A stretch of DNA of 64,000 bases, from NCBI GenBank assembly GCA_964595645.1, contig CAZQQT010000007.1, positions 32,001 to 96,000 on the forward strand, read 5' to 3'. Source of the stretch: an uncultured Thermococci archaeon (GTDB lineage Archaea; Methanobacteriota_B; Thermococci; Methanofastidiosales; B48-G16). Position numbers and translations under genes: made by a program. Positions 47,995 to 58,889 of this stretch are shown piece by piece (the first letter of the stretch is position 1; the number at the start of each line of letters is the position of its first letter). Below the pieces are notes generated by a model that was not told where the DNA came from, searched no databases, and saw only the letters and a list, made by a program, of their open reading frames with translations.

Positions 47995-48264
47995 CTACCT
48001 CATGAAAAAAGAAATTGCGCAGTACAAACTAAAAAATAAAGAAAAACGAGGATTAAATAGGTGTTATTGTAGGTAGGTTGGAGGAATCTATAATTCCCTT
48101 GGTTCATGATTGTAGAAAATAGTAGCTTCGTGTGGTTAGCGTATCTTTAAATTGAGATTTCTATTTGTTTTAATTTGTATAGAAATCTAACTTTTATAGG
48201 TACTCTTTCGAAATGGAGAAAATATTTATAGAAAGACTTAGAAGTATAATTGAAGGAAATTCCT

Positions 48265-49431
48265 ATGAATAAAAATCTGGTTCAAAATTTGTATGGCGAA
48301 TATGAAGAAAAAATAGATTCAATCATAAAAGAACATGGTGAAGAAGACGGTTTTATAACGGAAGGAAAGATGTGGTGGGACTATTACAAAGAGTTAATAG
48401 ACGAAACGTTGGACAAGATTAAAAACGGCGAATTGACAGAAAAAGATGCTAAAAAGTTTTATAAAACTTTTGGATTTGGTCCCAAACTTTACGGCCGCAC
48501 ATTTATCGAAAATGGGTTATCTAGCATAGAAAAGTTATTTCTCTTCTTAGCCGATGGTGATATTCCTGCGGAAAGAAAAATCGCTGAAGTAGTAGAAGAT
48601 CCAGAAAGTGAAAACTATTTTAGAGGCGTAGGTATCAACTTTGTTACTCTCTTCTTAACGACTTTTTTCCCTAAAAAATACGTGCAATGGAATAGGCAAA
48701 CAGATGGAGCTTTGGAATTGTTAAAGATCTATCCGGAGAAGGAAAGAGGAGAGAAAAAATCTGAGTTCTATTCAAAAATAAATAGTGTCTGCAAAGAGAT
48801 CGGTAGAACTGTGGATGTCAATTTTTTACCGAAGATTGATAACTTCCTTTACTGTCTAAACAAAGGATATATTGGAACAGAAATAGTTGAACCTGAGTAC
48901 GAAAAGGAAGCAAAGAAAAAGGAAGAACTTGAAGAAAAAGAACTGAAAACGGAAGAGGTAAGAACCCATACGAAAATGATGTACTATCTTATAAAAATAG
49001 GATTAAAGAAAAACTATAATGTGTGGGTTGCTAAAAATGACAGAAATAAAGAATATAGGGAAGAAAAATTTTCAGACCTCTGTTTAAGCGAAATACCAAA
49101 TTTTACAGGACCCGATACATTAGCAATCGCAAAGTATATAGATGTGATATGGTTTAGAAAAAATACTTTACATCCTGTCCGTTTTTTTGAGATAGAACAC
49201 ACCACAACAATTTATTCTGGATTATTGCGATTAAACGATGTTGCAGTGGATTATCCTATTGGCAAAGCAACGATTGTCATTCCGGAAGAAAGGATTAATT
49301 TATTTGAAACACAGATAGATAGACGAACCTTCAAAGTGGGCACCGATTTATCGGATGTATGTGACTATTTAACTTACGGAGATCTAAAAAAGTGGTATGA
49401 AGCAGTAAATATTGATTCAAAATACTCATAG
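48265..49431 (+). CDS. Putative PD-(D/E)xK restriction endonuclease-like protein
   Basis: C-terminal IDVIWF...FEIEHTTTIYSGLLRL; helical N-domain (TLFLTTFFPKKYVQWN). Confidence 0.7.
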   Translation: MNKNLVQNLYGEYEEKIDSIIKEHGEEDGFITEGKMWWDYYKELIDETLDKIKNGELTEKDAKKFYKTFGFGPKLYGRTFIENGLSSIEKLFLFLADGDIPAERKIAEVVEDPESENYFRGVGINFVTLFLTTFFPKKYVQWNRQTDGALELLKIYPEKERGEKKSEFYSKINSVCKEIGRTVDVNFLPKIDNFLYCLNKGYIGTEIVEPEYEKEAKKKEELEEKELKTEEVRTHTKMMYYLIKIGLKKNYNVWVAKNDRNKEYREEKFSDLCLSEIPNFTGPDTLAIAKYIDVIWFRKNTLHPVRFFEIEHTTTIYSGLLRLNDVAVDYPIGKATIVIPEERINLFETQIDRRTFKVGTDLSDVCDYLTYGDLKKWYEAVNIDSKYS

Positions 49432-49644: not shown

Positions 49645-51171
49645 ATGCAAAAAAAACTAGGAAAAATGACACTTGATAGGCTTGAATCACATTTATGGGA
49701 GTCTGCAAACATTTTGAGAGGAAGTATCGACTCATCTGACTACAAGAATTATATTTTTGGTCTACTGTTTCTGAAACGGCTGAGTGATGTATTCGAAGAG
49801 AAACAAGAAGAAATCAGGAAAAATCATGGAGAAGAATTTATCGAAGATAGAGACTTCCATGAGTTTTATGTGCCTGAGAGAGCCCGCTGGGACAACATCA
49901 AAGAAAAAACACAAGACATTGGTGCAGAACTAAACAAAGCATTTGAAGTCTTGGAGGAAGAAAACAGTCTTTTAGAGGGAGTATTAGTCAGCATTGACTA
50001 TAACGATAAAGAACGGCTACCTGACAACGTGCTAGAAGAACTCATTCAACATTTCACAACATATGGGTTGGGGAACAAGGATCTGGAGGATCCCGATCTG
50101 TTAGGCAGAGCCTACGAATACCTCATCCGACAGTTTGCCGACGATGCAGGGAAAAAAGGAGGTGAGTTTTACACACCTCGAGGCGTGGTTAAACTGATAG
50201 TGGAGATACTGGATCCGAAGGAAGGAATGAGAATCTACGACCCCTGTTGCGGATCCGGTGGAATGCTGATATACTCTGCAAAGCATTTAGAAGAGAATGG
50301 TCACAGCCCTTCGGAAATATCGCTGTACGGACAGGAACGGAATCTGAATACCTGGGCCATCTGCAAGATGAACATGTTGCTTCATGGGTTATACGATGCA
50401 AAAGTAGAGAAGGGAGATACCATGCGGGATCCAAAGTTCGTGGAGGAAGGAACATTGCAGCAGTTCGATATTGTGGTCGCAAATCCTATGTGGAACCAGA
50501 GTTCGTGGAGCAAAGAGTACCTCAAAAATGCCGAGCCGTATGGGCGCTTCTCTTATGGACTTCCACCAAAGAACTCGGCGGACTGGGCGTGGATACAACA
50601 CATGCTGGCCAGCACACACAAAAAGGGGAAGGTCGGCGTTGTTTTGGATAACGGTGTGCTGTTCAGAAGCAGAAGTGAGGGTAAAATCAGGGAGAAGGTG
50701 ATAAAAGACGATCTCATTGAAGCCGTCATTGCCCTCCCACCAAATCTATTCTACAACACATCGTCTCCGGGAACGATCCTCATTCTCAACAAGGACAAAC
50801 CTACCGAGCGAAAAGATAAAGTCATCTTCGTGTATGCCGAGGAGGAATACAGAGAAGGAAGTGCACAGAATTTCTTGGAAGAAGAGCACATCCAGAAGAT
50901 CGTGGATGCTATCGAAGATTATGAAGATCAAGAGAGATTCTGCAGAGTCGTTGGATATGAAGAGATCGAGAAGAACGACTTTAATTTAAATGTTCCCAGG
51001 TATGTGGATACTATTGAGCCGGAGGAACCGATAGATGTGAACGAAGCATGGGCTGAGTTGAAAGAAGTTGAGCAGGAAAGAGACGAGATTACGAGTGAGA
51101 TGAACGGATATCTGGAGGAGATCGGGTATGATTACTCTATGGTTGAGGGAAGTGGTGGGAAAGAAAAATGA
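49645..51171 (+). CDS. hsdM: Type I R-M methyltransferase
   Basis: LWESANILRG, GEFYTP, DPCCGSGG, ANPMW. Confidence 0.96.
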   Translation: MQKKLGKMTLDRLESHLWESANILRGSIDSSDYKNYIFGLLFLKRLSDVFEEKQEEIRKNHGEEFIEDRDFHEFYVPERARWDNIKEKTQDIGAELNKAFEVLEEENSLLEGVLVSIDYNDKERLPDNVLEELIQHFTTYGLGNKDLEDPDLLGRAYEYLIRQFADDAGKKGGEFYTPRGVVKLIVEILDPKEGMRIYDPCCGSGGMLIYSAKHLEENGHSPSEISLYGQERNLNTWAICKMNMLLHGLYDAKVEKGDTMRDPKFVEEGTLQQFDIVVANPMWNQSSWSKEYLKNAEPYGRFSYGLPPKNSADWAWIQHMLASTHKKGKVGVVLDNGVLFRSRSEGKIREKVIKDDLIEAVIALPPNLFYNTSSPGTILILNKDKPTERKDKVIFVYAEEEYREGSAQNFLEEEHIQKIVDAIEDYEDQERFCRVVGYEEIEKNDFNLNVPRYVDTIEPEEPIDVNEAWAELKEVEQERDEITSEMNGYLEEIGYDYSMVEGSGGKEK

Positions 51172-52679
51172 GAATCCTCTTGGATACGAACATATTGATA
51201 TATCGGGAATCAAACCAGATTCTTTCTGAGGACATCCAAGAGCTGACAAAAATACTGAATCGAGGTGACTTTGATATTCTAATTCACCCCGCAACTTTTG
51301 ATGATATTAGTAAAGACGGGTATGAAAAAAGAAAAAGGATTATGGAATCTAAGTTCAAAACATATTCTACATTAGAAAAACCTCCGAACCCATTGGAAGA
51401 TCAAGAATTTTTAGATCGCGTTGAATGGTATTCACATCCCGAGGACGAGATTGACAATAAAATTCTTTATGCAGTATGCAGAAATGCAGTTGATTTTTTA
51501 ATCACTGAAGATCATGGGATACATCACAATGCTAAGGAGATTGGTATTGATGAACGTGTTCTTCTTGCACAAGACGCTTTGAAATTATTTGAACAAAAGG
51601 AAGAAAAACCTCCGAATGTACCTCCATCGTTGGAAAAAAATTATGTTTACAATTTGGACATTTCCGATCCTATTTTCGATAGCTTAAAAAGAGATTATCC
51701 GGATTTCGAGGATTGGTTTGAGAAAATATCGAAAGAGGGAAGGAAATGTTATGTTAACCGTAGAAAAGACGGTAAAGTAGGTGCTTTGTTGATATATAAA
51801 CTGGAAGAAGAAGATATGACCAACACAAGTCCACCTTTACCATTGAAAAGGAGATTAAAAATATGTACCTTAAAAGTCACTCATGTCGGTTATAAGATAG
51901 GAGAACTATTCATTAAAACCTCAGTAGACATGGCATTGAAAAAAGGTTGTGAACAAATCTATCTCACACATTTCACAGAACCCGACGATAGATTGGTATC
52001 ATTGATAAACGATTTTGGGTTTTACAAAGGAGCGGTTAAACATTGGGATGATGGTCGAGAAGAAGACATTTTTTTGAAAGAACTATTTGCCGGAGATGAC
52101 GTAGAACAATTATCCCCGCTAGAGATCTCTGAAAAATATTATCCAACATACTATCATGGAAGAAATGTTCGCAAATTTATTGTACCAATAGTCCCAAAGT
52201 ACCACGATAGGCTATTCACCGACTGCGGGGGACGACAAACCTTTTTACATGAACATGCTGGCGAGTTCGTAACGGAGGGAAACACAATAAAAAAAGCTTA
52301 TTTAAGCCATTCAAAAACCGGAATGGTAAGACCAGGCGATATTCTGCTCTTTTATCGTTCTCATGATCAACAAAGAATAACTTCTCTCGGTGTTGTGGAA
52401 AAAGTTCATGATGAACTTACAAATGCAGGTGAAATAGCCAGTATTGTGGGTAAACGTACTGTCTATTCGTTAAGAGAAATAGAAGAAATGTCAGAAAAAG
52501 AAACAAAGGTAATTTTGTTTAGACATCACTTTCACTTGCCTCTTCCACTAGATTATAAATTCTTGAGGAAACAATCCATAATCAAAGGGCCTACAAGGTC
52601 TATAACTAAAATCGACCACGATAACTATTTAAAAATGGTTGAAAAAGGTGGTATAGATGAACGTTTTACTGTCGATTAA
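51168..52679 (+). CDS. PIN-GNAT-PUA(ASCH/EVE-like) fusion protein
   Basis: LLDTNILI and LITED (PIN); LKICTLKV..GYKIGELFI..IYLT..FGF (GNAT); IVPIVPKY..VRPGDILLFYRS (PUA-like). Confidence 0.8.
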   Translation: MRILLDTNILIYRESNQILSEDIQELTKILNRGDFDILIHPATFDDISKDGYEKRKRIMESKFKTYSTLEKPPNPLEDQEFLDRVEWYSHPEDEIDNKILYAVCRNAVDFLITEDHGIHHNAKEIGIDERVLLAQDALKLFEQKEEKPPNVPPSLEKNYVYNLDISDPIFDSLKRDYPDFEDWFEKISKEGRKCYVNRRKDGKVGALLIYKLEEEDMTNTSPPLPLKRRLKICTLKVTHVGYKIGELFIKTSVDMALKKGCEQIYLTHFTEPDDRLVSLINDFGFYKGAVKHWDDGREEDIFLKELFAGDDVEQLSPLEISEKYYPTYYHGRNVRKFIVPIVPKYHDRLFTDCGGRQTFLHEHAGEFVTEGNTIKKAYLSHSKTGMVRPGDILLFYRSHDQQRITSLGVVEKVHDELTNAGEIASIVGKRTVYSLREIEEMSEKETKVILFRHHFHLPLPLDYKFLRKQSIIKGPTRSITKIDHDNYLKMVEKGGIDERFTVD

Positions 52680-53061
52680 ACCAAAATATGTTGAAAAGAT
52701 CGCCGAGGGTGAGAAGAAACTGGAGTTCAGAAAGGTGATCTTCAAGGACGAGAACAGGCCGGACACCATATACATATATTGCACCTCTCCTGTCAAGAAG
52801 ATAATCGGCTATTTCACCACCGGTGAGATCTTCGAGGACGACCCGGCCGAGCTCTGGGACAGGTTCCATAACCTTGCAGGTATAAGTGAAGAGGAGTTCT
52901 TCGATTACTTCTCGGGAAAGGAAAGAGGATACGCCATCGGTATCGAGGACTTCAACCAGTTCGACAACGCTATCGACCCTTACGAAGTGATCCCGGGATT
53001 CACACCACCCCAGTCCTTCTGCTATATGAACGACGATCTCCAGAGGTATCACGATGTCTGA
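52657..53061 (+). CDS. ASCH-domain protein
   Basis: LLSIKPKYVEKIAEGEKKLEFRK, IYCTSPV, PPQSFCY. Confidence 0.92.
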   Translation: MNVLLSIKPKYVEKIAEGEKKLEFRKVIFKDENRPDTIYIYCTSPVKKIIGYFTTGEIFEDDPAELWDRFHNLAGISEEEFFDYFSGKERGYAIGIEDFNQFDNAIDPYEVIPGFTPPQSFCYMNDDLQRYHDV

Positions 53062-54376
53062 GTACAAGGAAGTGCAGATCGGGCCCAAGACGGTGGAGAT
53101 ACCTGTGGAGTGGGATAAAGTTAAAGTTGAAGGTATTTTCGAGATAATTAAAGGGCAAAGTTATAAAAGTAAATATTATGCTGATGAAGAGGATGGGTTT
53201 ATATTCATTAATTTAAAATGTATAAACAAGAAAGGAGGATTTAATAAAGAAGGTATAAAATTTTATCAGGGACCTTTTGCAGAGAAAAATTTTGTTGAAC
53301 CAGGAAATTTGATAATGGCCAATACAGATTTAAACCGTGACGCAGAAGTAGTAGGATATCCTCTTTATGTACCAGAATTTAATAATGAAAAAAAAATAGG
53401 AATATCTATGGATGTCTCAGTGTTAAGAAAAAAGAACAGTTGTGTAATTGATAAATATTTTTATTATTTATTTAGCAATGAGATTATTCACGGTGCAGTA
53501 CAAAATTTTGCTGAAGGATCAACTGTATTACATCTTGATTTAGATTCTGTAAAAAATTTAACAATCCCCCTCCCACCACTCCCCGAACAGCGCCGTATCG
53601 CAGAGATCTTATCTACCGTGGACGATGCCATCCAGAAGACGGATGAGGTCATCGAGAAGGCGGAGAGGTTGAAGAAGGGGCTGATGCAGGACCTGTTGAC
53701 CAAGGGGATAGGGCACGATGAGTTTAAGGAAGTGCAGATCGGGCCGAGATCTATTAAAATCCCCAAAGAATGGGATATTAAGAATTTACAACCGTCCAAT
53801 GGGATTGTAAAAAAAGTTACTGATGGATCCCATTACTCACCACCCCAAATAGAAGAGGGTGAATATCTTTACGCAACCGTTACGAACTTTAGCGATAGGG
53901 GTATAGATTATGGAACATGTAATAAAATAAATGAAGAAGAATATCTTAAGATGGTAGAAGGGGGTAATAAACCTCTGAAAGGAGATGTACTTTTCAGTAA
54001 AGATGGGACTATTGGAATCACTGATGTATATGAAGATGATGAAGATGTGGTATTACTTTCGTCCATTGCAATCATTAGGCCTATACAAAATCAAGTAAAT
54101 CCAATTTATTTGAAATATTTTCTATCTTCAAAAGAAATCGAACATCAAATACGTTCTTTTAAAAGTGGAACTGCGATTCGCCGTGTAGTTCTTAGAGATA
54201 TCAAAAAATTCAAAATTCCACTACCATCTCTACCCGAACAGCGCCGCATCGCAGAGATTCTATCAAATATCGACAGTAAAATCCAAAAAGAAAAATCCTA
54301 TAAACAAAACCTCCAGAAACTCAAAAAAGGATTGATGCAGGACCTGTTGACAGGAAAAGTGAGGGTGAATACATGA
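53054..54376 (+). CDS. hsdS: Type I R-M specificity subunit
   Basis: Two TRDs; LPPLPEQRRIAEILS and KKGLMQDLLT each twice. Confidence 0.96.
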   Translation: MSEYKEVQIGPKTVEIPVEWDKVKVEGIFEIIKGQSYKSKYYADEEDGFIFINLKCINKKGGFNKEGIKFYQGPFAEKNFVEPGNLIMANTDLNRDAEVVGYPLYVPEFNNEKKIGISMDVSVLRKKNSCVIDKYFYYLFSNEIIHGAVQNFAEGSTVLHLDLDSVKNLTIPLPPLPEQRRIAEILSTVDDAIQKTDEVIEKAERLKKGLMQDLLTKGIGHDEFKEVQIGPRSIKIPKEWDIKNLQPSNGIVKKVTDGSHYSPPQIEEGEYLYATVTNFSDRGIDYGTCNKINEEEYLKMVEGGNKPLKGDVLFSKDGTIGITDVYEDDEDVVLLSSIAIIRPIQNQVNPIYLKYFLSSKEIEHQIRSFKSGTAIRRVVLRDIKKFKIPLPSLPEQRRIAEILSNIDSKIQKEKSYKQNLQKLKKGLMQDLLTGKVRVNT

Positions 54377-57300
54377 CACAGGATTGGACTGAGTACCACC
54401 TGACGGAGAAACCAGCATTAGATCTTCTAGAAGAGCTGGGGTATACAGTCTACGATATCAATGAGACCTTTGAACGACCGGAACGAGACTTGTTGCGAGA
54501 GGTGCTGTTACTGAACAACGTACGGTCGGCGATTCAACGAATTAACCCATGGATCTCAGAGAATAACCTCAATAAAGCGGTGAACATGATCCGTCCCACA
54601 AGAATCCGGGCCGCTGGAATGATAGAAGCCAACGAGATCACCTACACCCGACTGGTCAAGTACATCTCAGTTCCTCAGGATCTGGGAAAAGGAAAAAAGA
54701 ATCAGACGGTAAAGTACATTGATTTTGAGCATCCTGAAAACAACGAGTTCTTGGCACTGAACCAGTACAAGGTAAAAGGACACGAGAAAATAAAACCGGA
54801 CATCGTGATCTTTGTTAACGGCATTCCCATCGGCGTCATCGAGTGCAAAAACGAGACTACCTGCGATGATCCAGAGGACGATGCCATCGATCAGTTGCGA
54901 CGGTATCAGAACATTCGGTACGAGAATGAGAATGAAGGTGCAGAGCAACTGTTTTATCCTAACCAAATACTTGTAGCAGCCTGGCGGGATTCTGCCTCCT
55001 CCTGTGCCATTGGTGCACCAGCCCGACAGTTCAAAGCGTGGAAGGATCCCTATCCACACACAAAAGAAGAGATTCGATCCGTAGTCGGAAGAAACGTTAC
55101 CCTCCAAGATATACTCCTCTTCTCCCTCTTCAAAAAAGATCGTCTGCTAGATCTCATTCAGAACTTCATCGTGTTTGAACGCGCAGGAAACAAGCTCATC
55201 AAAAAACTGGCGCGGTACCAGCAGTATCGAGCAGTAACCAAAGCTGTCGAACGGATAAAGAACGCAGACACACTGATTGATCGGAGTGGTACTGTCTGGC
55301 ACACTCAGGGATCGGGGAAGTCTCTCTCCATGCTCTTTTTGGCCCTCAAACTGCGACGAATGGAAGGACTGGGAAATCCCACACTTCTCGTAGTAACAGA
55401 CAGAATCGATCTCGACGACCAGATCACCGGTACCTTCGAACGGTGCGGATTTCCAAATCCAATCCAAGCGCAAGATACAGACAATCTCAAAGAGTTGCTC
55501 AGAAGAAACGTCGGAAAAACGATTATGACGACGGTGCACAAATTCCAGGAACGTGTGAAGGAGAAATACCCTGTTCTCACTGAAGATACGAATGTGTTTG
55601 TAATGGCCGACGAGGCACACAGGACACAGTACAAAGACTTGGCGGCAAATATGCGAAGAGCCTTGCCCAACGCCTGCTACTTGGGATTCACGGGGACGCC
55701 TATCGACAAAGAAGAGAGAAGCACACTGCGGACCTTCGGATCCTATATCGACACCTACACCATCGATGAGTCCGTTGACGATGGAATGACGCTCAATATC
55801 CTTTACGAGGGAAGAATCCCTGAGTTACGAGTTGAAGGACGCGATCTCGACGATTTATTCGACAGAATATTCAAAAACTACTCCAACGAAGAGAAGAAAA
55901 AAATAAAAGAGAAGTACGCAACTGAACGAGACATTGCTGAAGCAAAATCCAGAATTGAACGGATATGTCTTGATATCATCGATCATTACGAATCAAAAAT
56001 ATATCCCCTCAAAGGACAGATAGTAACAGTGAGCAGAGAAGCAGCCGCCAGATACAAGGAAGCAATGGACAGGTTTAACGGACCTGAGTCTGCTGTGATC
56101 ATCAGCAGTGATCAGAACGATCCGCCGCTTCTCAAGAAGTACCATACATCTGCTGGTGAACGAAAGCATCTTATTGAAACATTTAAAGATCCGGAAAGTA
56201 ATCTCTGCCTCCTCATTGTCTGTGATATGCTGCTGACTGGATTTGACGCACCAGTAGAGCAGGTAATGTATTTAGACAAGCCGCTCAAAGAACATAATCT
56301 CCTGCAAGCGATTGCACGAGTGAACAGACGGTTTGAAGAGAAAAATTATGGTCTTATTGTGGACTACTATGGCGTGTTTGATTACCTCCAAGAAGCATTG
56401 GCCGTCTTCAATAAAAAGGATATAGAAAACGCTGTCACCCCCATCAAGGATGAAAAACCGAGGCTGGAGAGAACGTATAGACAGGTTATGCAGTTTTTTG
56501 AAGGAGTGGATCTTGATGACCTCGATGAGTGCATCCTAACCTTTAAAGACGAAGACAAACGACTGAAGTTCAAACGTGCTTTTAAAGCCTTTGCAAAGAG
56601 CATGGATATCGTTATGCCCGATCCAATCGCGGATCCGTACCGTGAGGATCTCAAAACACTGGGGAAAATTTACAAAGCGGTGAGAAACCACTACCGTGAC
56701 AGCTCTTTGGACATAAAGGGTGTTGGTGGGAAGGTAAAGCGGCTAATAGATGAACATATTCGCGCAACCGACATCAAAATACTCAATGAACCGGTCTCTA
56801 TTCTTGACAAAGAGGAGTTCGATCGTACTGTAGAAGAGCATGAAAATATTGAGACTAAAGCTAGTGAGATGGAACACGCAATCCGAAGTGAGATTAGTGT
56901 GAAAATGGAAGAGAACCCTGTCTTTTACCAATCGCTGAAAGAACGGTTAGAGGAAATTATCGAAAAGAGAGTCCAGGGAAGATTCACCTTTACCAAACAG
57001 TTAGAAGAAATGAGAGAGATAATCCACGAAATTCGAGATGTGAGGACAAAAGCCGAGAAGCTAGGATTGAATGAGCGAGAGTTTGCTCTCTACGAACTGC
57101 TCCTCGACGAAAGAGAACATGAACGGGTGGAGACAGTGAGTGAGAGTACGGGAGCCTACCATCCTGGTGGTCCTGAACTGCATATTAATAAAAAGGTTAG
57201 AGATTTATCCAAACAATTAATGGACGACCTTGAAGACATGAGAGTCGTGGATTGGAAGGAAAAGAAAATGATTCTAAAAGAAATGAGAAAAGTGATCAAA

Positions 57301-57387
57301 CTCACGTTGAGTGAGTACAAAGAATTCAAGAAAAATCTGGATAGCGTCACAACGAAAGTGATCAAACTCGCGAGGAATATCCTATGA
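54373..57387 (+). CDS. hsdR: Type I R-M restriction subunit
   Basis: PDIV..IECK, HTQGSGKS, DEAHR, GFTGTP, LTGFD, QAIARVNR. Confidence 0.96.
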   Translation: MTQDWTEYHLTEKPALDLLEELGYTVYDINETFERPERDLLREVLLLNNVRSAIQRINPWISENNLNKAVNMIRPTRIRAAGMIEANEITYTRLVKYISVPQDLGKGKKNQTVKYIDFEHPENNEFLALNQYKVKGHEKIKPDIVIFVNGIPIGVIECKNETTCDDPEDDAIDQLRRYQNIRYENENEGAEQLFYPNQILVAAWRDSASSCAIGAPARQFKAWKDPYPHTKEEIRSVVGRNVTLQDILLFSLFKKDRLLDLIQNFIVFERAGNKLIKKLARYQQYRAVTKAVERIKNADTLIDRSGTVWHTQGSGKSLSMLFLALKLRRMEGLGNPTLLVVTDRIDLDDQITGTFERCGFPNPIQAQDTDNLKELLRRNVGKTIMTTVHKFQERVKEKYPVLTEDTNVFVMADEAHRTQYKDLAANMRRALPNACYLGFTGTPIDKEERSTLRTFGSYIDTYTIDESVDDGMTLNILYEGRIPELRVEGRDLDDLFDRIFKNYSNEEKKKIKEKYATERDIAEAKSRIERICLDIIDHYESKIYPLKGQIVTVSREAAARYKEAMDRFNGPESAVIISSDQNDPPLLKKYHTSAGERKHLIETFKDPESNLCLLIVCDMLLTGFDAPVEQVMYLDKPLKEHNLLQAIARVNRRFEEKNYGLIVDYYGVFDYLQEALAVFNKKDIENAVTPIKDEKPRLERTYRQVMQFFEGVDLDDLDECILTFKDEDKRLKFKRAFKAFAKSMDIVMPDPIADPYREDLKTLGKIYKAVRNHYRDSSLDIKGVGGKVKRLIDEHIRATDIKILNEPVSILDKEEFDRTVEEHENIETKASEMEHAIRSEISVKMEENPVFYQSLKERLEEIIEKRVQGRFTFTKQLEEMREIIHEIRDVRTKAEKLGLNEREFALYELLLDEREHERVETVSESTGAYHPGGPELHINKKVRDLSKQLMDDLEDMRVVDWKEKKMILKEMRKVIKLTLSEYKEFKKNLDSVTTKVIKLARNIL

Positions 57388-58121
57388 AATCTACAGAAAA
57401 AGTCTCCCTTGGAAAAACAACAATTCACTACAAAATTGTTCGGAGTAAGAGAAAGACGTTGGGAATTAAAGTTGGACTTGAAGAAGGAGTAATTGTTAGA
57501 GCACCGACTCACTTACCGGTGGACGTTATACGAAAAAAGGTACAAGAAAAGGGGGACTGGATTCTACAAAAACTTGAAAAAATGGGTGAAATTGAGCCGA
57601 AACCAGCTCCTAAAGAATTTATGAGTGGAGAAAAATTGCCGTATTTAGGAAGAAGATATAGGTTAAAGGTTAATAAGGAAAATAATAGTTCTAAAGAAGT
57701 TGATGTGAGATTATATCGTGGTAAATTTTATATTGGCCTCAGCTCTCAGATAAACGAGAGTGAGAGAAGGACGAAAATACGGCAAGCGCTAATCAAATGG
57801 TATAGATCGCACGCACAAAAAAGAATCGCAGAAAGAGTAGAGAAGTATCAATCCAAAATTGGTGTAACGCCTGCGAAAGTAAAGGTAAAGCATCAAAAGA
57901 AACGGTGGGGGAGTTGCTCCAACAAGCGCAACCTGAACTTCAACTGGAGAATTATCATGGCCCCGATATCGCTTGTTGACTACGTGGTAGTACACGAACT
58001 TACTCATCTTAAGTACCCACATCACTCAAAAGAGTTCTGGGATACTATTGCATCAATTCTTCCTGACTATAAAGAAAGACGTGAAAGGTTAAGGGTAAAG
58101 GGAAACACGTTAGAATTTTAG
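57384..58121 (+). CDS. YgjP/DUF45 (SprT-like) HExxH metallo-hydrolase
   Basis: RWGSC, YVVVHELTH, HSKEFW. Confidence 0.93.
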   Translation: MKSTEKVSLGKTTIHYKIVRSKRKTLGIKVGLEEGVIVRAPTHLPVDVIRKKVQEKGDWILQKLEKMGEIEPKPAPKEFMSGEKLPYLGRRYRLKVNKENNSSKEVDVRLYRGKFYIGLSSQINESERRTKIRQALIKWYRSHAQKRIAERVEKYQSKIGVTPAKVKVKHQKKRWGSCSNKRNLNFNWRIIMAPISLVDYVVVHELTHLKYPHHSKEFWDTIASILPDYKERRERLRVKGNTLEF

Positions 58122-58187
58122 ATAGAGAGAATAGTATAGTAGAAGATTTATAAAGATCATCTGCGAAGAGAGAGGAGGGTGTGTGGT

Positions 58188-58889
58188 ATGAAAAATTCAT
58201 TCACGCTTCGTGAACTGCCAGAAGAAGAAAGACCAAGAGAGCGTCTTCAAACTCTTGGAGTGAATTATCTCTCAATGCAAGAACTATTAGCCTTAGTAAT
58301 TGAAAGGGGAAGTAGAGGAAAGAATGTGTTGACTATTGCCCAAGAACTCCTCGCTACGTTCGGGAACCTCTCCAAAATCAAAGAAGCTTCCATAGAACAA
58401 CTTCAACAGGTCGATGGAATCGGGATTGCTACTGCATGTAAGCTAAAGGCCTCGCTAAAATTAGGTGAAAAAGCATTGATCGTGCACGAACGGTATGGAC
58501 AAAAAGTGGAATCACCGGAAAATATATTCCATTTACTTAAAAATGACCTGGGAAACAAAAAGAGAGAACATTTTAAAATAATCTTATTGAACACGAAAAA
58601 ACATATTATAGCCATTGAAAATATCTCTATCGGATCTTTAAATAGTAGCATTGCACACCCACGAGAGATATTCCGTTCTGCTATTCAACATGCAGCGGAT
58701 TCTGTAATTTTGGTGCATAATCATCCTTCGGGTGATCCTAGTCCAAGTGATGACGATATTGAGCTCACTGAAAGACTCATAAAGGTGGGAGATATTTTGG
58801 GTATAAAAGTAGTAGACCATGTGATTATCGCTGGTAAGTCCTTCGTGAACCTTCGGGGGGAGGAAGAAACTGCTGGAATATGGAAATAA
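58188..58889 (+). CDS. radC: RadC/JAB-domain protein
   Basis: RPRERL, HPREIF, HNHPSGDPSPS..D, DHVI. Confidence 0.95.
   Translation: MKNSFTLRELPEEERPRERLQTLGVNYLSMQELLALVIERGSRGKNVLTIAQELLATFGNLSKIKEASIEQLQQVDGIGIATACKLKASLKLGEKALIVHERYGQKVESPENIFHLLKNDLGNKKREHFKIILLNTKKHIIAIENISIGSLNSSIAHPREIFRSAIQHAADSVILVHNHPSGDPSPSDDDIELTERLIKVGDILGIKVVDHVIIAGKSFVNLRGEEETAGIWK

What the first reader, a model, noticed from the sequence alone, without database searches (positions are those of the whole stretch)
51124..53061. PIN-GNAT-PUA plus ASCH module spliced into the hsdM-hsdS junction: candidate acetylation writer/reader/eraser guarding a type I R-M system
Seen: both genes overlap their neighbours, giving one coupled hsdM-X-ASCH-hsdS-hsdR operon. 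hsdM reads ..EIGYD plus a 12-aa tail (GGGTATGAT at 51124) and ASCH ends RYHDV* over the hsdS ATG (GATGTCTGAG); joining these recreates a plausible ancestral GYDV*/MSE junction, which points to a precise insertion. Known: PrrC is a toxin embedded in a type I R-M operon and fires when the R-M system is inhibited; PIN domains are RNases; GNAT toxins acetylate tRNA; the ASCH protein YqfB hydrolyses N4-acetylcytidine. GNAT-ASCH pairing may have been noted computationally, but I know of no characterised R-M-embedded form. Inference: either an abortive-infection back-up (PIN/GNAT toxin held in check by ASCH or the Hsd complex) or a second nucleic-acid modification layer. This is my best candidate for a new system in the window.
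Basis: partly seen in the sequence, partly recalled or inferred. Interest (0 to 1): 0.82.

Follow-up and report, generated by a model that had tools for sequence, protein, structure and literature searches.

The report
Known acetyltransferase-ASCH cassette inside restriction operon
Two overlapping genes wedged between the methylase and specificity genes of a type I restriction system are real and intact, but they belong to an already catalogued and, as far as I could find, untested candidate toxin-antitoxin or virus-defence pair (PIN-GNAT-EVE plus ASCH; PADLOC PDC-M11; labelled GevT/GevA in one phage record).

Summary
hsdM, a 503-aa PIN-GNAT-PUA-like gene (X), a 134-aa ASCH gene, hsdS, hsdR and a YgjP-like gene form one + strand chain with overlaps of 4, 23, 8, 4 and 4 nt.

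The pair is not new. X matches PADLOC PDC-M11A (E 5e-160) and ASCH matches PDC-M11B (E 2e-48). Bell, Wolf and Koonin (2020) described (PIN)-GNAT-EVE + ASCH operons and their link to type I R-M. Payne et al. (2024) drew the PDC candidates from cassettes embedded in BREX, DISARM or type I R-M systems. GenBank PV340567.1 labels a PIN-less homologue pair GevT toxin/GevA antitoxin. This scan has notes on the family in at least 74 other genomes. I found no published test.

What I add:
- The X/ASCH overlap is exactly 23 nt in 68 of 70 loci, and also in an E. coli phage.
- The ASCH partner keeps S6, K20, E23 and R25 invariant, which has the spacing of the EOLA1 ac4C-deacetylase site.
- About one locus in five lies beside hsd genes, and this arose several times.
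- ASCH-HsdS and ASCH-RHH fusions exist.
- In the window X and ASCH differ sharply in composition, which argues against one simple insertion.

Best reading (about 0.4): a self-contained writer/eraser toxin-antitoxin or abortive-infection module. A PrrC-like guard dedicated to the R-M system is less likely.

The parts
49645..51171 (+). hsdM, type I R-M methyltransferase (508 aa)
   Evidence: Pfam N6_Mtase E 1.4e-112 and HsdM_N E 7.5e-32.
51133..51171 (+). 12-codon hsdM tail (YSMVEGSGGKEK*) that carries the GGTGG Shine-Dalgarno-like motif of X and ends in the ATGA stop/start overlap
   Evidence: hsdM of insert-free relatives L088, L090 and L091 ends 1-2 residues after the G-[LF] motif. Purine-rich GGAGG/GGTGG motifs lie upstream of X in other loci. 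A similar 18-nt stretch lies at the 3' end of X (D7).
51168..51596 (+). X residues 1-143: PIN domain (predicted RNase)
   Evidence: The AF2 domain model (pLDDT 83.8) hits only PIN proteins in Foldseek (7og5, VapC11/15, FitB, Utp24). D6, D96, T113, E114 and D115 are invariant in 48 sequences. Pfam PIN_3 is below its cut-off.
51624..52142 (+). X residues about 153-325: GNAT acetyltransferase domain
   Evidence: Foldseek hits NatD 4ua3, archaeal NAT 4lx9, PaiA 1tiq and Ard1 2x7b at E 1e-5 to 1e-6. A profile hits Naa50 6yzz at E 0.012. G241, G245 and E246 are invariant. PF00583 is on record for one relative.
52155..52679 (+). X residues about 330-503: PUA-like (EVE/ASCH-type) reader domain, with the stop codon
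   Evidence: Foldseek top hit is ZmASCH 5guq (E 1.2e-7), and the EVE protein 1zce also matches. PF01878 (EVE) is on record for two relatives. G390, D391 and Y396 are invariant and S398 is nearly so. No match to the partner's K-x-x-E-x-R site was found by BLASTP or hhalign.
52657..52679 (+). 23-nt dual-coding overlap of X and ASCH
   Evidence: The overlap is exactly 23 nt in 68 of 70 related loci. It is also 23 nt in Escherichia phage PhiR47_2 (GevT/GevA) and on a Halalkaliarchaeum plasmid.
52657..53061 (+). ASCH protein (134 aa), the PDC-M11B / GevA-type partner; predicted amidohydrolase and antitoxin
   Evidence: PADLOC PDC-M11B E 1.6e-48. ZmASCH 5guq at E 9e-23 with a profile. S6, K20, E23, R25, Y41 and S120 are invariant in 64 sequences.
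53054..54376 (+). hsdS specificity subunit (440 aa, two target-recognition domains)
   Evidence: Pfam Methylase_S E 2.2e-37, two stretches.
54373..57387 (+). hsdR restriction subunit (1004 aa)
   Evidence: Pfam SWI2_SNF2, HSDR_N, T1R_D3-like and T1RH-like_C.
57384..58121 (+). YgjP-like metallopeptidase gene coupled to hsdR
   Evidence: Pfam YgjP-like E 1.5e-63. The same gene follows hsdR in L006.

Best explanation
Identity (about 0.95). The two genes are a complete, apparently functional copy of the (PIN)-GNAT-EVE + ASCH cassette. This is PADLOC candidate PDC-M11, and a PIN-less homologue pair is labelled GevT/GevA in one phage record. The cassette sits in the accessory-gene slot between hsdM and hsdS of an intact type I R-M operon in an uncultured archaeon.

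Mechanism (about 0.4, inferred). It is a self-contained writer/eraser toxin-antitoxin or abortive-infection module.
- The large protein docks on a modified base through its EVE-like domain. The target is most likely RNA, such as tRNA.
- It then acetylates the target with its GNAT domain and/or cuts it with its PIN domain.
- The small ASCH protein is made by translational coupling from the conserved 23-nt overlap. It keeps the toxin harmless, most likely by hydrolysing the N-acetyl mark with its S/K/E/R site, and possibly also by binding.
- Infection, or loss of the cassette, tips the balance and stops growth.

Its place inside the hsd operon reflects a recurrent landing site and co-expression. 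There may also be a physical link between ASCH and HsdS. It does not reflect a strict dependence on the R-M system.
For: Identity:
- Full-length matches to PDC-M11A (E 4.7e-160) and PDC-M11B (E 1.6e-48).
- PIN, GNAT and PUA-like folds are confirmed.
- At least 1971 homologues exist, and 244 places in species-representative genomes encode a relative.

Autonomous pair:
- In 80 loci only X and ASCH recur. Every other neighbour family occurs in 8 loci or fewer.
- Only 3 of 41 related genomes carry X.
- Homologues lie on plasmids and in phages. In phage PhiR47_2 the pair follows cI and is annotated as toxin and antitoxin.

Coupling: the overlap is 23 nt in 68 of 70 loci.

Enzymatic partner:
- S6, K20, E23 and R25 are invariant. 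They have the spacing of the EOLA1 residues S7, K21, E24 and R26, which a 2026 preprint reports as the ac4C deacetylase site (10.64898/2026.08.01.741249).
- Y41 and S120 align with Y47 and S128 of ZmASCH. [quoted passage not shown]

Antitoxin-like fusions: ASCH-RHH (P0124), and HTH-annotated ASCH genes next to GNAT genes on rhizobial plasmids.

Link to R-M:
- 15 of 80 loci have hsd genes nearby, mostly in the order M-X-ASCH-S.
- The association needs at least 5 well-supported changes on the X tree.
- An ASCH-HsdS fusion exists (P0123).
Against: - Nothing here shows toxicity, acetylation, deacetylation or phage protection.
- I found no paper behind the GevT/GevA label.
- The ASCH site is shared by the whole TRIP4-like clade. 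The closest solved relative was reported as a weak RNase, not a deacetylase.
- A profile of the partner did not reach YqfB or EOLA1 in the PDB.
- The GNAT domain resembles protein N-terminal acetyltransferases at least as much as a bacterial toxin entry (7byy ranks 24th), so the substrate class is open.
- The ASCH-HsdS fusion, and the DNA-base-acetylation proposal that Bell et al. attribute to Iyer et al. 2013, point to DNA rather than RNA.
Confidence: 0.45

Rival explanations
1. R-M guard in the manner of PrrC. The module is held silent by the Hsd complex or by ASCH docked on HsdS, and it fires its PIN/GNAT activities when a phage anti-restriction protein disables the R-M enzyme.
For: - The pair lies inside the hsd operon with full translational coupling.
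- The same order, M-X-ASCH-S, recurs in L003, L006, L024, L030 and L042.
- An ASCH-HsdS fusion protein exists (P0123). Bell et al. report such fusions in Methanohalophilus (PMC7641849).
Against: - About four in five loci have no hsd gene within 8 kb.
- Neighbours include housekeeping genes.
- PIN-less homologues work from prophage immunity regions.
- PrrC is almost exclusively embedded in type I R-M (Payne et al. 2024), which is not the case here.
- There is no similarity to PrrC domains.
Confidence: 0.12
2. Second DNA modification layer. According to Bell et al. 2020, Iyer et al. [quoted passage not shown] In this reading GNAT-EVE writes the mark, and the EVE and ASCH domains read or erase it, giving an extra self/non-self mark next to m6A.
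For: - Bell et al. (PMC7641849) cite this proposal. From the HTH-ASCH and ASCH-HsdS fusions they argue that the operon's ASCH domains bind modified DNA.
- I confirmed an ASCH-HsdS fusion.
- ZmASCH binds ssDNA as well as ssRNA (PMC5615036).
Against: - A constitutive eraser encoded with, and coupled to, the writer is odd for a stable epigenetic mark.
- The PIN domain is typically an RNase.
- No dedicated nuclease that would read the absence of the mark travels with the pair in most loci.
Confidence: 0.15
3. Sensor-nuclease for modified invaders. The EVE-like and ASCH domains recognise unusual bases in phage DNA or RNA and direct the PIN nuclease to them. This would complement a type I enzyme that hypermodified phages escape. 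GNAT would serve regulation.
For: - EVE and other PUA-like domains serve as modified-base sensors in type IV restriction enzymes (PMC7641849, PMC12707154).
- The window's island also holds McrBC-like and sensor-nuclease genes just upstream (earlier notes; REase_II hit).
Against: - The strict conservation of the GNAT cofactor loop and of the ASCH catalytic-type residues is not explained by this reading.
- The PIN domain is missing from the phage-borne relatives, so it cannot be the only effector.
Confidence: 0.12
4. Selfish addiction cassette without a defence role. It is a mobile toxin-antitoxin pair that lands in permissive slots such as the hsdM-hsdS junction and persists by post-segregational killing.
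For: - Distribution is sporadic: X in 3 of 41 relatives and ASCH in 4 of 133 genomes of the phylum.
- The X tree mixes archaeal and bacterial phyla.
- The pair is carried on plasmids and phages.
- The composition inside the window's pair is mosaic.
Against: - Hsd genes are roughly ten-fold or more enriched near the pair (my own rough estimate).
- Other defence candidates such as YhcG/DUF1016 and AlbA_2 genes share the slot.
- The pair also sits in prophage defence hotspots (and earlier notes).
Confidence: 0.15

Closest known systems
(PIN)-GNAT-EVE + ASCH operons (Bell, Wolf and Koonin 2020, PMC7641849, which cites Iyer et al. 2013), equal to PADLOC phage-defence candidate PDC-M11 (PDC set of Payne et al. 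2024, bioRxiv 10.1101/2024.01.29.577857)
   Same: Same three-domain large protein and same ASCH partner, with full-length HMM matches. Same reported association with type I R-M operons in archaea and bacteria.
   Different: Nothing essential. This copy is a divergent member (best relative 66% identical). It has an unusual compositional break between its two genes.
GevT toxin / GevA antitoxin as annotated in Escherichia phage PhiR47_2 (GenBank PV340567.1)
   Same: GNAT-EVE protein followed by an ASCH protein with the same 23-nt overlap. The GevT region is 27% identical to residues 150-502 of X.
   Different: The phage protein lacks the PIN domain and sits after the repressor cI, not in an R-M operon. 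I could not find the study behind the names.
PrrC anticodon nuclease embedded in the EcoprrI type I R-M operon
   Same: An accessory RNA-directed effector gene placed between hsd genes and co-expressed with them.
   Different: No shared domains. PrrC is almost always R-M-embedded (Payne et al. 2024), whereas this pair is embedded in about one locus in five. This pair also carries its own putative neutraliser.
DarT/DarG (a comparison of working logic only, from general knowledge)
   Same: A toxin that writes a chemical group onto nucleic acid is followed by an antitoxin enzyme that removes it. The pair is mobile and associated with defence.
   Different: The chemistry is different (ADP-ribose versus a presumed acetyl group) and the folds are unrelated. 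Neither activity has been shown for this family.
ZmASCH of Zymomonas mobilis (PDB 5guq; PMC5615036) and the ASCH deacetylases YqfB and EOLA1
   Same: The partner protein is a sequence homologue of ZmASCH (E 9e-23). It shares that protein's S, K, E, R, Y47 and S128 positions. The K-x-x-E-x-R spacing equals that of EOLA1 (preprint 10.64898/2026.08.01.741249).
   Different: ZmASCH was reported as a weak Mg-dependent ssRNA nuclease. YqfB and EOLA1 act mainly on free ac4C. Neither was reached by my PDB profile search.
GNAT toxins of type II toxin-antitoxin systems (AtaT, TacT, KacT, ItaT)
   Same: GNAT fold and a predicted toxin role. A 'bacterial toxin' entry, 7byy, is among the structural matches.
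   Different: Those toxins are single-domain proteins neutralised by RHH/DUF1778 antitoxins that bind them. Here the GNAT is flanked by PIN and EVE domains and paired with an ASCH protein.

Membership tests
(PIN)-GNAT-EVE + ASCH cassette / PADLOC PDC-M11 / GevTA | The large protein matches the PDC-M11A profile over its full length | tested here: met
   PDLC04422: E 4.7e-160, residues 1-502 against profile positions 1-500 of 501.
(PIN)-GNAT-EVE + ASCH cassette / PADLOC PDC-M11 / GevTA | The small protein matches the PDC-M11B profile | tested here: met
   PDLC04424 E 1.6e-48 and PDLC04425 E 1.3e-47.
(PIN)-GNAT-EVE + ASCH cassette / PADLOC PDC-M11 / GevTA | Domain order: PIN, GNAT, then a PUA-like (EVE) domain | tested here: met
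   AF2 models. Foldseek gives PIN proteins for residues 1-148, and GNAT and ASCH/EVE proteins for the rest. EVE versus ASCH type for the C-terminal domain is not resolved by my data: Pfam EVE is on record only for two relatives.
(PIN)-GNAT-EVE + ASCH cassette / PADLOC PDC-M11 / GevTA | The ASCH gene lies directly downstream on the same strand | tested here: met
   23-nt overlap in the window and in 68 of 70 related loci.
(PIN)-GNAT-EVE + ASCH cassette / PADLOC PDC-M11 / GevTA | Toxin and antitoxin, or anti-phage, activity | not testable with these tools
   The only support is an annotation in GenBank PV340567.1. No paper was found.
PrrC-type R-M guard | Near-exclusive embedding in type I R-M operons | tested here: not met
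   15 of 80 loci have hsd genes within 8 kb; 9 of 45, 5 of 27 and 2 of 20 at rising flank thresholds.
PrrC-type R-M guard | PrrC domain make-up (ATPase-like N-domain plus anticodon-nuclease C-domain) | tested here: not met
   No such match in Pfam, NCBIfam or PADLOC.
PrrC-type R-M guard | Silencing by, and physical contact with, the Hsd complex | not testable with these tools
   The only hint is indirect: the ASCH-HsdS fusion P0123.
ASCH N4-acetylcytidine amidohydrolases (YqfB / EOLA1) | Active-site Ser plus the K-x-x-[T/S/E]-x-R triad | tested here: met
   S6, K20, E23 and R25 are invariant in 64 partner proteins. The spacing is that described for EOLA1 (preprint 10.64898/2026.08.01.741249).
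ASCH N4-acetylcytidine amidohydrolases (YqfB / EOLA1) | Detectable sequence relationship to YqfB or EOLA1 | tested here: inconclusive
   The profile search of the PDB found ZmASCH (E 9e-23) and 2kku (E 0.003), but not 1TE7 or 5Y7D at E up to 10.
ASCH N4-acetylcytidine amidohydrolases (YqfB / EOLA1) | Deacetylase activity | not testable with these tools
   This needs an enzyme assay.
GNAT toxins of type II toxin-antitoxin systems | A GNAT toxin neutralised by an RHH/DUF1778 antitoxin that binds it | tested here: not met
   The partner is an ASCH protein. Only rare relatives carry an added RHH domain (P0124).
Type I restriction-modification system (host operon) | Complete HsdM, HsdS (two TRDs) and HsdR with their hallmark domains | tested here: met
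   Pfam matches for all three, with no internal stops.

The most novel reading that the evidence does not exclude
In the R-M-embedded copies the ASCH protein docks on HsdS, as in the natural ASCH-HsdS fusions. It would tie an acetylation-based writer/eraser module to the type I complex. The cell would then gain either a second, reversible nucleic-acid mark or a back-up effector that is released when the restriction enzyme is inhibited.
Probability: 0.12. Interest if true: 0.8.

Novelty: new member of a known kind. Interest (0 to 1): 0.3.

Why it matters
The family is large (at least 1971 relatives in the protein collection) and spreads across archaea, bacteria, plasmids and phages. It is repeatedly placed in defence contexts. 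Even so, I found no published test of its chemistry.

If the GNAT domain acetylates a nucleobase and the ASCH partner removes the mark, this would be a new reversible nucleic-acid modification used in conflict between cells and viruses, parallel to DarTG.

This window adds no new kind of system. It does supply an intact archaeal example. My survey also gives concrete handles for experiments: the invariant S/K/E/R site of the partner, the fixed 23-nt overlap, and the ASCH-HsdS and ASCH-RHH fusions.

Tried and rejected
- **Empty-site allele.** The same-genus genome G001 has an hsdM 89% identical, but its contig ends at residue 424 and no hsdS or hsdR piece was found. More distant operons (about 40% identity) show hsdS starting 0-5 nt after hsdM but cannot prove the proposed junction.
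- **Target-site duplication or terminal repeats around 51133-53053.** Only short chance-level repeats were found. The one positional match (D7) is explained by both gene ends encoding a GGTGG ribosome-binding motif.
- **Common origin of the C-terminal domain of X and the ASCH partner.** BLASTP gave nothing. hhalign gave only a short PQS motif at probability 1.4%. My by-eye alignment is therefore not used as evidence.
- **Sequence matches of X to solved structures.** None are useful. The folds were needed.
- **Close relatives of the window's ASCH, to explain its high GC3.** None exceed 47% identity in 133 genomes of the phylum.
- **Literature on GevT/GevA.** No paper in the held library. Brenes and Laub 2025 and Iyer et al. 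2013 are not held.
Neighbourhoods were therefore read from 80 genome loci with my own ORF calls and Pfam/PADLOC tallies.

Full report
**1. The observation**

The ORF map shows one uninterrupted + strand chain:
- hsdM 49645-51171
- a 503-aa gene, here called X, 51168-52679
- a 134-aa gene, 52657-53061
- hsdS 53054-54376
- hsdR 54373-57387
- a YgjP-like gene 57384-58121
- RadC after a short gap

The overlaps are 4, 23, 8, 4 and 4 nt. GGGTATGAT lies at 51124. The hsdM tail reads YSMVEGSGGKEK*. ASCH ends RYHDV* over the hsdS ATG. Pfam confirms complete HsdM, HsdS (two specificity domains) and HsdR.

**2. What the two genes are**

By sequence alone, Pfam gives only sub-threshold PIN_3 for X and sub-threshold ASCH for the small protein. 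PADLOC profiles match both over their full length:
- X to PDC-M11A, E 4.7e-160
- the small protein to PDC-M11B, E 1.6e-48

An AlphaFold model of X built on 48 relatives (pLDDT 83.7) has three domains separated by a low-confidence linker at residues 144-152.
- Foldseek places the middle domain among GNAT acetyltransferases (NatD, archaeal NAT, PaiA, Ard1).
- It places the C-terminal domain next to ZmASCH (5guq, E 1.2e-7) and the EVE protein 1zce.
- The N-terminal 148 residues, folded alone (pLDDT 83.8), match only PIN proteins: HARP RNase P, VapC toxins, FitB and Utp24.

The small protein is a clear sequence relative of ZmASCH (E 1.6e-15 alone, 9e-23 as a profile).

Residues expected for activity are invariant across the family.
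- In X: D6, D96, T113, E114 and D115 in the PIN domain, and G241, G245 and E246 in the GNAT loop.
- In the partner: S6, K20, E23, R25, Y41 and S120.

The first four partner residues have the spacing of S7, K21, E24 and R26 of human EOLA1. A 2026 preprint reports these as the catalytic site of an N4-acetylcytidine deacetylase and says they are conserved through the TRIP4-like ASCH clade. Y41 and S120 align with Y47 and S128 of ZmASCH. [quoted passage not shown]

I could not show by BLASTP or profile comparison that the C-terminal domain of X shares this site. It has the G-D...F-Y-x-S stretch (G390, D391 and Y396 invariant), which I recall as typical of EVE domains. That resemblance is from memory and was not tested.

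**3. Relatives and context**

- The protein collection holds at least 1971 relatives of X, mostly from methanogen, ANME and other archaeal assemblies, with some bacteria.
- A scan of species-representative genomes found 244 places that encode a relative. I studied the best 80.
- ASCH lies directly downstream on the same strand in 70 of the 75 loci that reach past the end of X.
- The overlap is exactly 23 nt in 68 of those 70.
- The same 23 nt separate the start of 'GevA' from the stop of 'GevT' in Escherichia phage PhiR47_2. There the large protein lacks PIN and is only 27% identical.
- The same 23 nt are seen on a Halalkaliarchaeum plasmid.

Nothing else is conserved around the pair. After X and ASCH, the most common neighbour clusters occur in 8 loci or fewer. 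Among 132 immediate neighbours the leading Pfam families are HsdS (7), YhcG/DUF1016 nuclease (5) and N6_Mtase (4), and housekeeping genes are also present.

With iterated profiles, 15 of 80 loci have hsd genes within 8 kb. The fraction is 9 of 45, 5 of 27 and 2 of 20 as the required flank grows. In most of these the order is hsdM, then X-ASCH, then hsdS. YhcG/DUF1016 or AlbA_2-type genes often share the same slot.

On a tree of X, the hsd-linked copies need 9 changes of state, and at least 5 are forced by well-supported branches. One clade holds 9 of them. The window's copy sits elsewhere on a long branch.

X is present in only 3 of 41 related genomes, and ASCH in 4 of 133 genomes of the phylum.

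So the pair is a mobile, self-contained cassette that has entered type I operons repeatedly. From the frequency of hsdM in the related genomes (11 of 41), I estimate the enrichment near hsd genes as roughly ten-fold or more. This is a rough inference, not a test.

**4. The insertion claim**

In insert-free relatives, hsdM ends one or two residues after a G-[LF] motif that corresponds to the window's G-Y-D, and hsdS starts within 5 nt (L088, L090, L091). The window's 12-codon tail is therefore extra.

The tail carries a GGTGG motif 10-14 nt before the ATG of X. Similar purine-rich motifs precede X elsewhere, and the same motif precedes the ASCH start inside the end of X. This explains the only positional repeat found (D7). 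The tail therefore looks like the cassette's own ribosome-binding region read in the hsdM frame, which supports an insertion.

The exact ancestral junction cannot be shown. No empty site is available and there is no target duplication.

The two genes also do not look like one recent piece. X has GC3 0.30 and ASCH 0.67. That gap of 0.38 compares with a median of 0.01 and a maximum of 0.19 in 73 related loci. The AT-rich parts of the operon are X and the hsdS specificity domains. hsdM, ASCH, the conserved parts of hsdS and hsdR are GC-richer. A later exchange of X alone, by recombination at the conserved overlap, is a simple explanation but is untested.

**5. How it most likely works**

Shown:
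- two intact genes, tightly coupled
- three conserved catalytic-type sites
- an autonomous and mobile distribution
- recurrent embedding in type I operons
- fusions of the ASCH partner to HsdS (P0123), to an RHH domain of the kind found in antitoxins (P0124), and to a second GNAT (P0122, L066, L067)

Inferred: a writer/eraser toxin-antitoxin or abortive-infection module.
- The EVE-like domain would select a modified base.
- The GNAT domain would acetylate, and the PIN domain would cut.
- The ASCH partner would remove the mark.

RNA, especially tRNA, is favoured for four reasons. PIN domains are RNases. Known GNAT toxins act on charged tRNA. ZmASCH acts on ssRNA. The characterised ASCH hydrolases act on acetylcytidine.

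I put this mechanism at about 0.4. The rivals are a guard wired to the Hsd complex, a DNA acetyl mark, a sensor-nuclease for modified invaders, and a purely selfish addiction cassette. Each is set out with its tests in the Rival explanations section.

**6. Comparison with what is known**

- Bell, Wolf and Koonin (2020) describe exactly this family. [quoted passage not shown] They state that PIN-GNAT-EVE genes are frequently found with type I R-M operons in bacteria and archaea. They report that ASCH is fused to HsdS in Methanohalophilus, and that none of the modules has been characterised. They credit Iyer et al. 2013 with the first description and the DNA-acetylation idea.
- Payne et al. (2024) derived the PADLOC 'PDC' candidates from cassettes embedded in BREX, DISARM and type I R-M systems and left the 145 candidates untested. 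PDC-M11 carries that preprint's PDC naming. I did not find the name PDC-M11 in its main text, and the link came from an earlier scan note.
- GenBank PV340567.1 names the PIN-less phage form GevT toxin/GevA antitoxin. I could not find the supporting study.
- The EOLA1 preprint remarks that bacterial homologues lie in R-M operons next to predicted tRNA endoRNases and may contribute to phage defence.
- Earlier notes of this scan record the same family in at least 74 other genomes.

The locus is therefore a new member of a known, mechanistically unsolved kind.

**7. Verdict**

- Novelty is low.
- Interest is 0.3. It rests on the unsolved chemistry of the family and on the small additions made here: the fixed 23-nt overlap, the invariant ASCH site, repeated independent embedding, the ASCH-HsdS and ASCH-RHH fusions, and the compositional mosaic.

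Noticed in passing
window 51168-53061: There is a sharp compositional break inside the conserved pair. X has GC3 0.30 and ASCH 0.67, a larger gap than in any of 73 related loci. This suggests X (or ASCH) was exchanged by recombination at the conserved overlap.
   Followed up: partly
L066:2348-4048, L067:9505-11202, protein P0122: In Methanolobus, Methanococcoides and ANME-3 relatives, the gene after X encodes a 565-aa protein: ASCH fused to a second GNAT domain plus an unassigned C-terminal part.
   Followed up: partly
proteins P0123 and P0124: Close relatives of the window's ASCH (about 50% identity) occur fused to a full HsdS (684 aa) and to a ribbon-helix-helix domain (294 aa).
   Followed up: partly
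L006:6839-7918, L030:5569-6633, L042:5742-8004, L089:3002-4345: The hsdM-hsdS slot of related operons also holds YhcG/DUF1016 PD-(D/E)XK nuclease genes (the Pfam families of five immediate neighbours) and AlbA_2/Schlafen-HATPase_c_4 genes, sometimes together with the X-ASCH pair. PADLOC PDC-S02 matches six of the 132 neighbours; I assume but did not check that these are the YhcG genes. The junction is a general landing site for accessory genes.
   Followed up: partly
window 48250-49431: A 393-aa gene just upstream of hsdM has a weak type II restriction-enzyme match at its C-terminus (PADLOC REase_II, E 1.9e-10) and no Pfam hit.
   Followed up: no
window 57384-58889: A YgjP-like metallopeptidase gene overlaps the end of hsdR by 4 nt and is followed by RadC. 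The same hsdR-YgjP or hsdR-RadC order is seen in L006 and L042.
   Followed up: no
L060 and L061: Identical X proteins are recorded in a Methanospirillum assembly and in an assembly labelled Thiopseudomonas. This is either very recent transfer or a binning error.
   Followed up: no
Methanothermobacter phage psiM100, AF301375.1 8233-9522: A 43% identical copy covering residues 1-433 of X lies in the 'inserted fragment IFa' (ORFD) of this archaeal virus.
   Followed up: no
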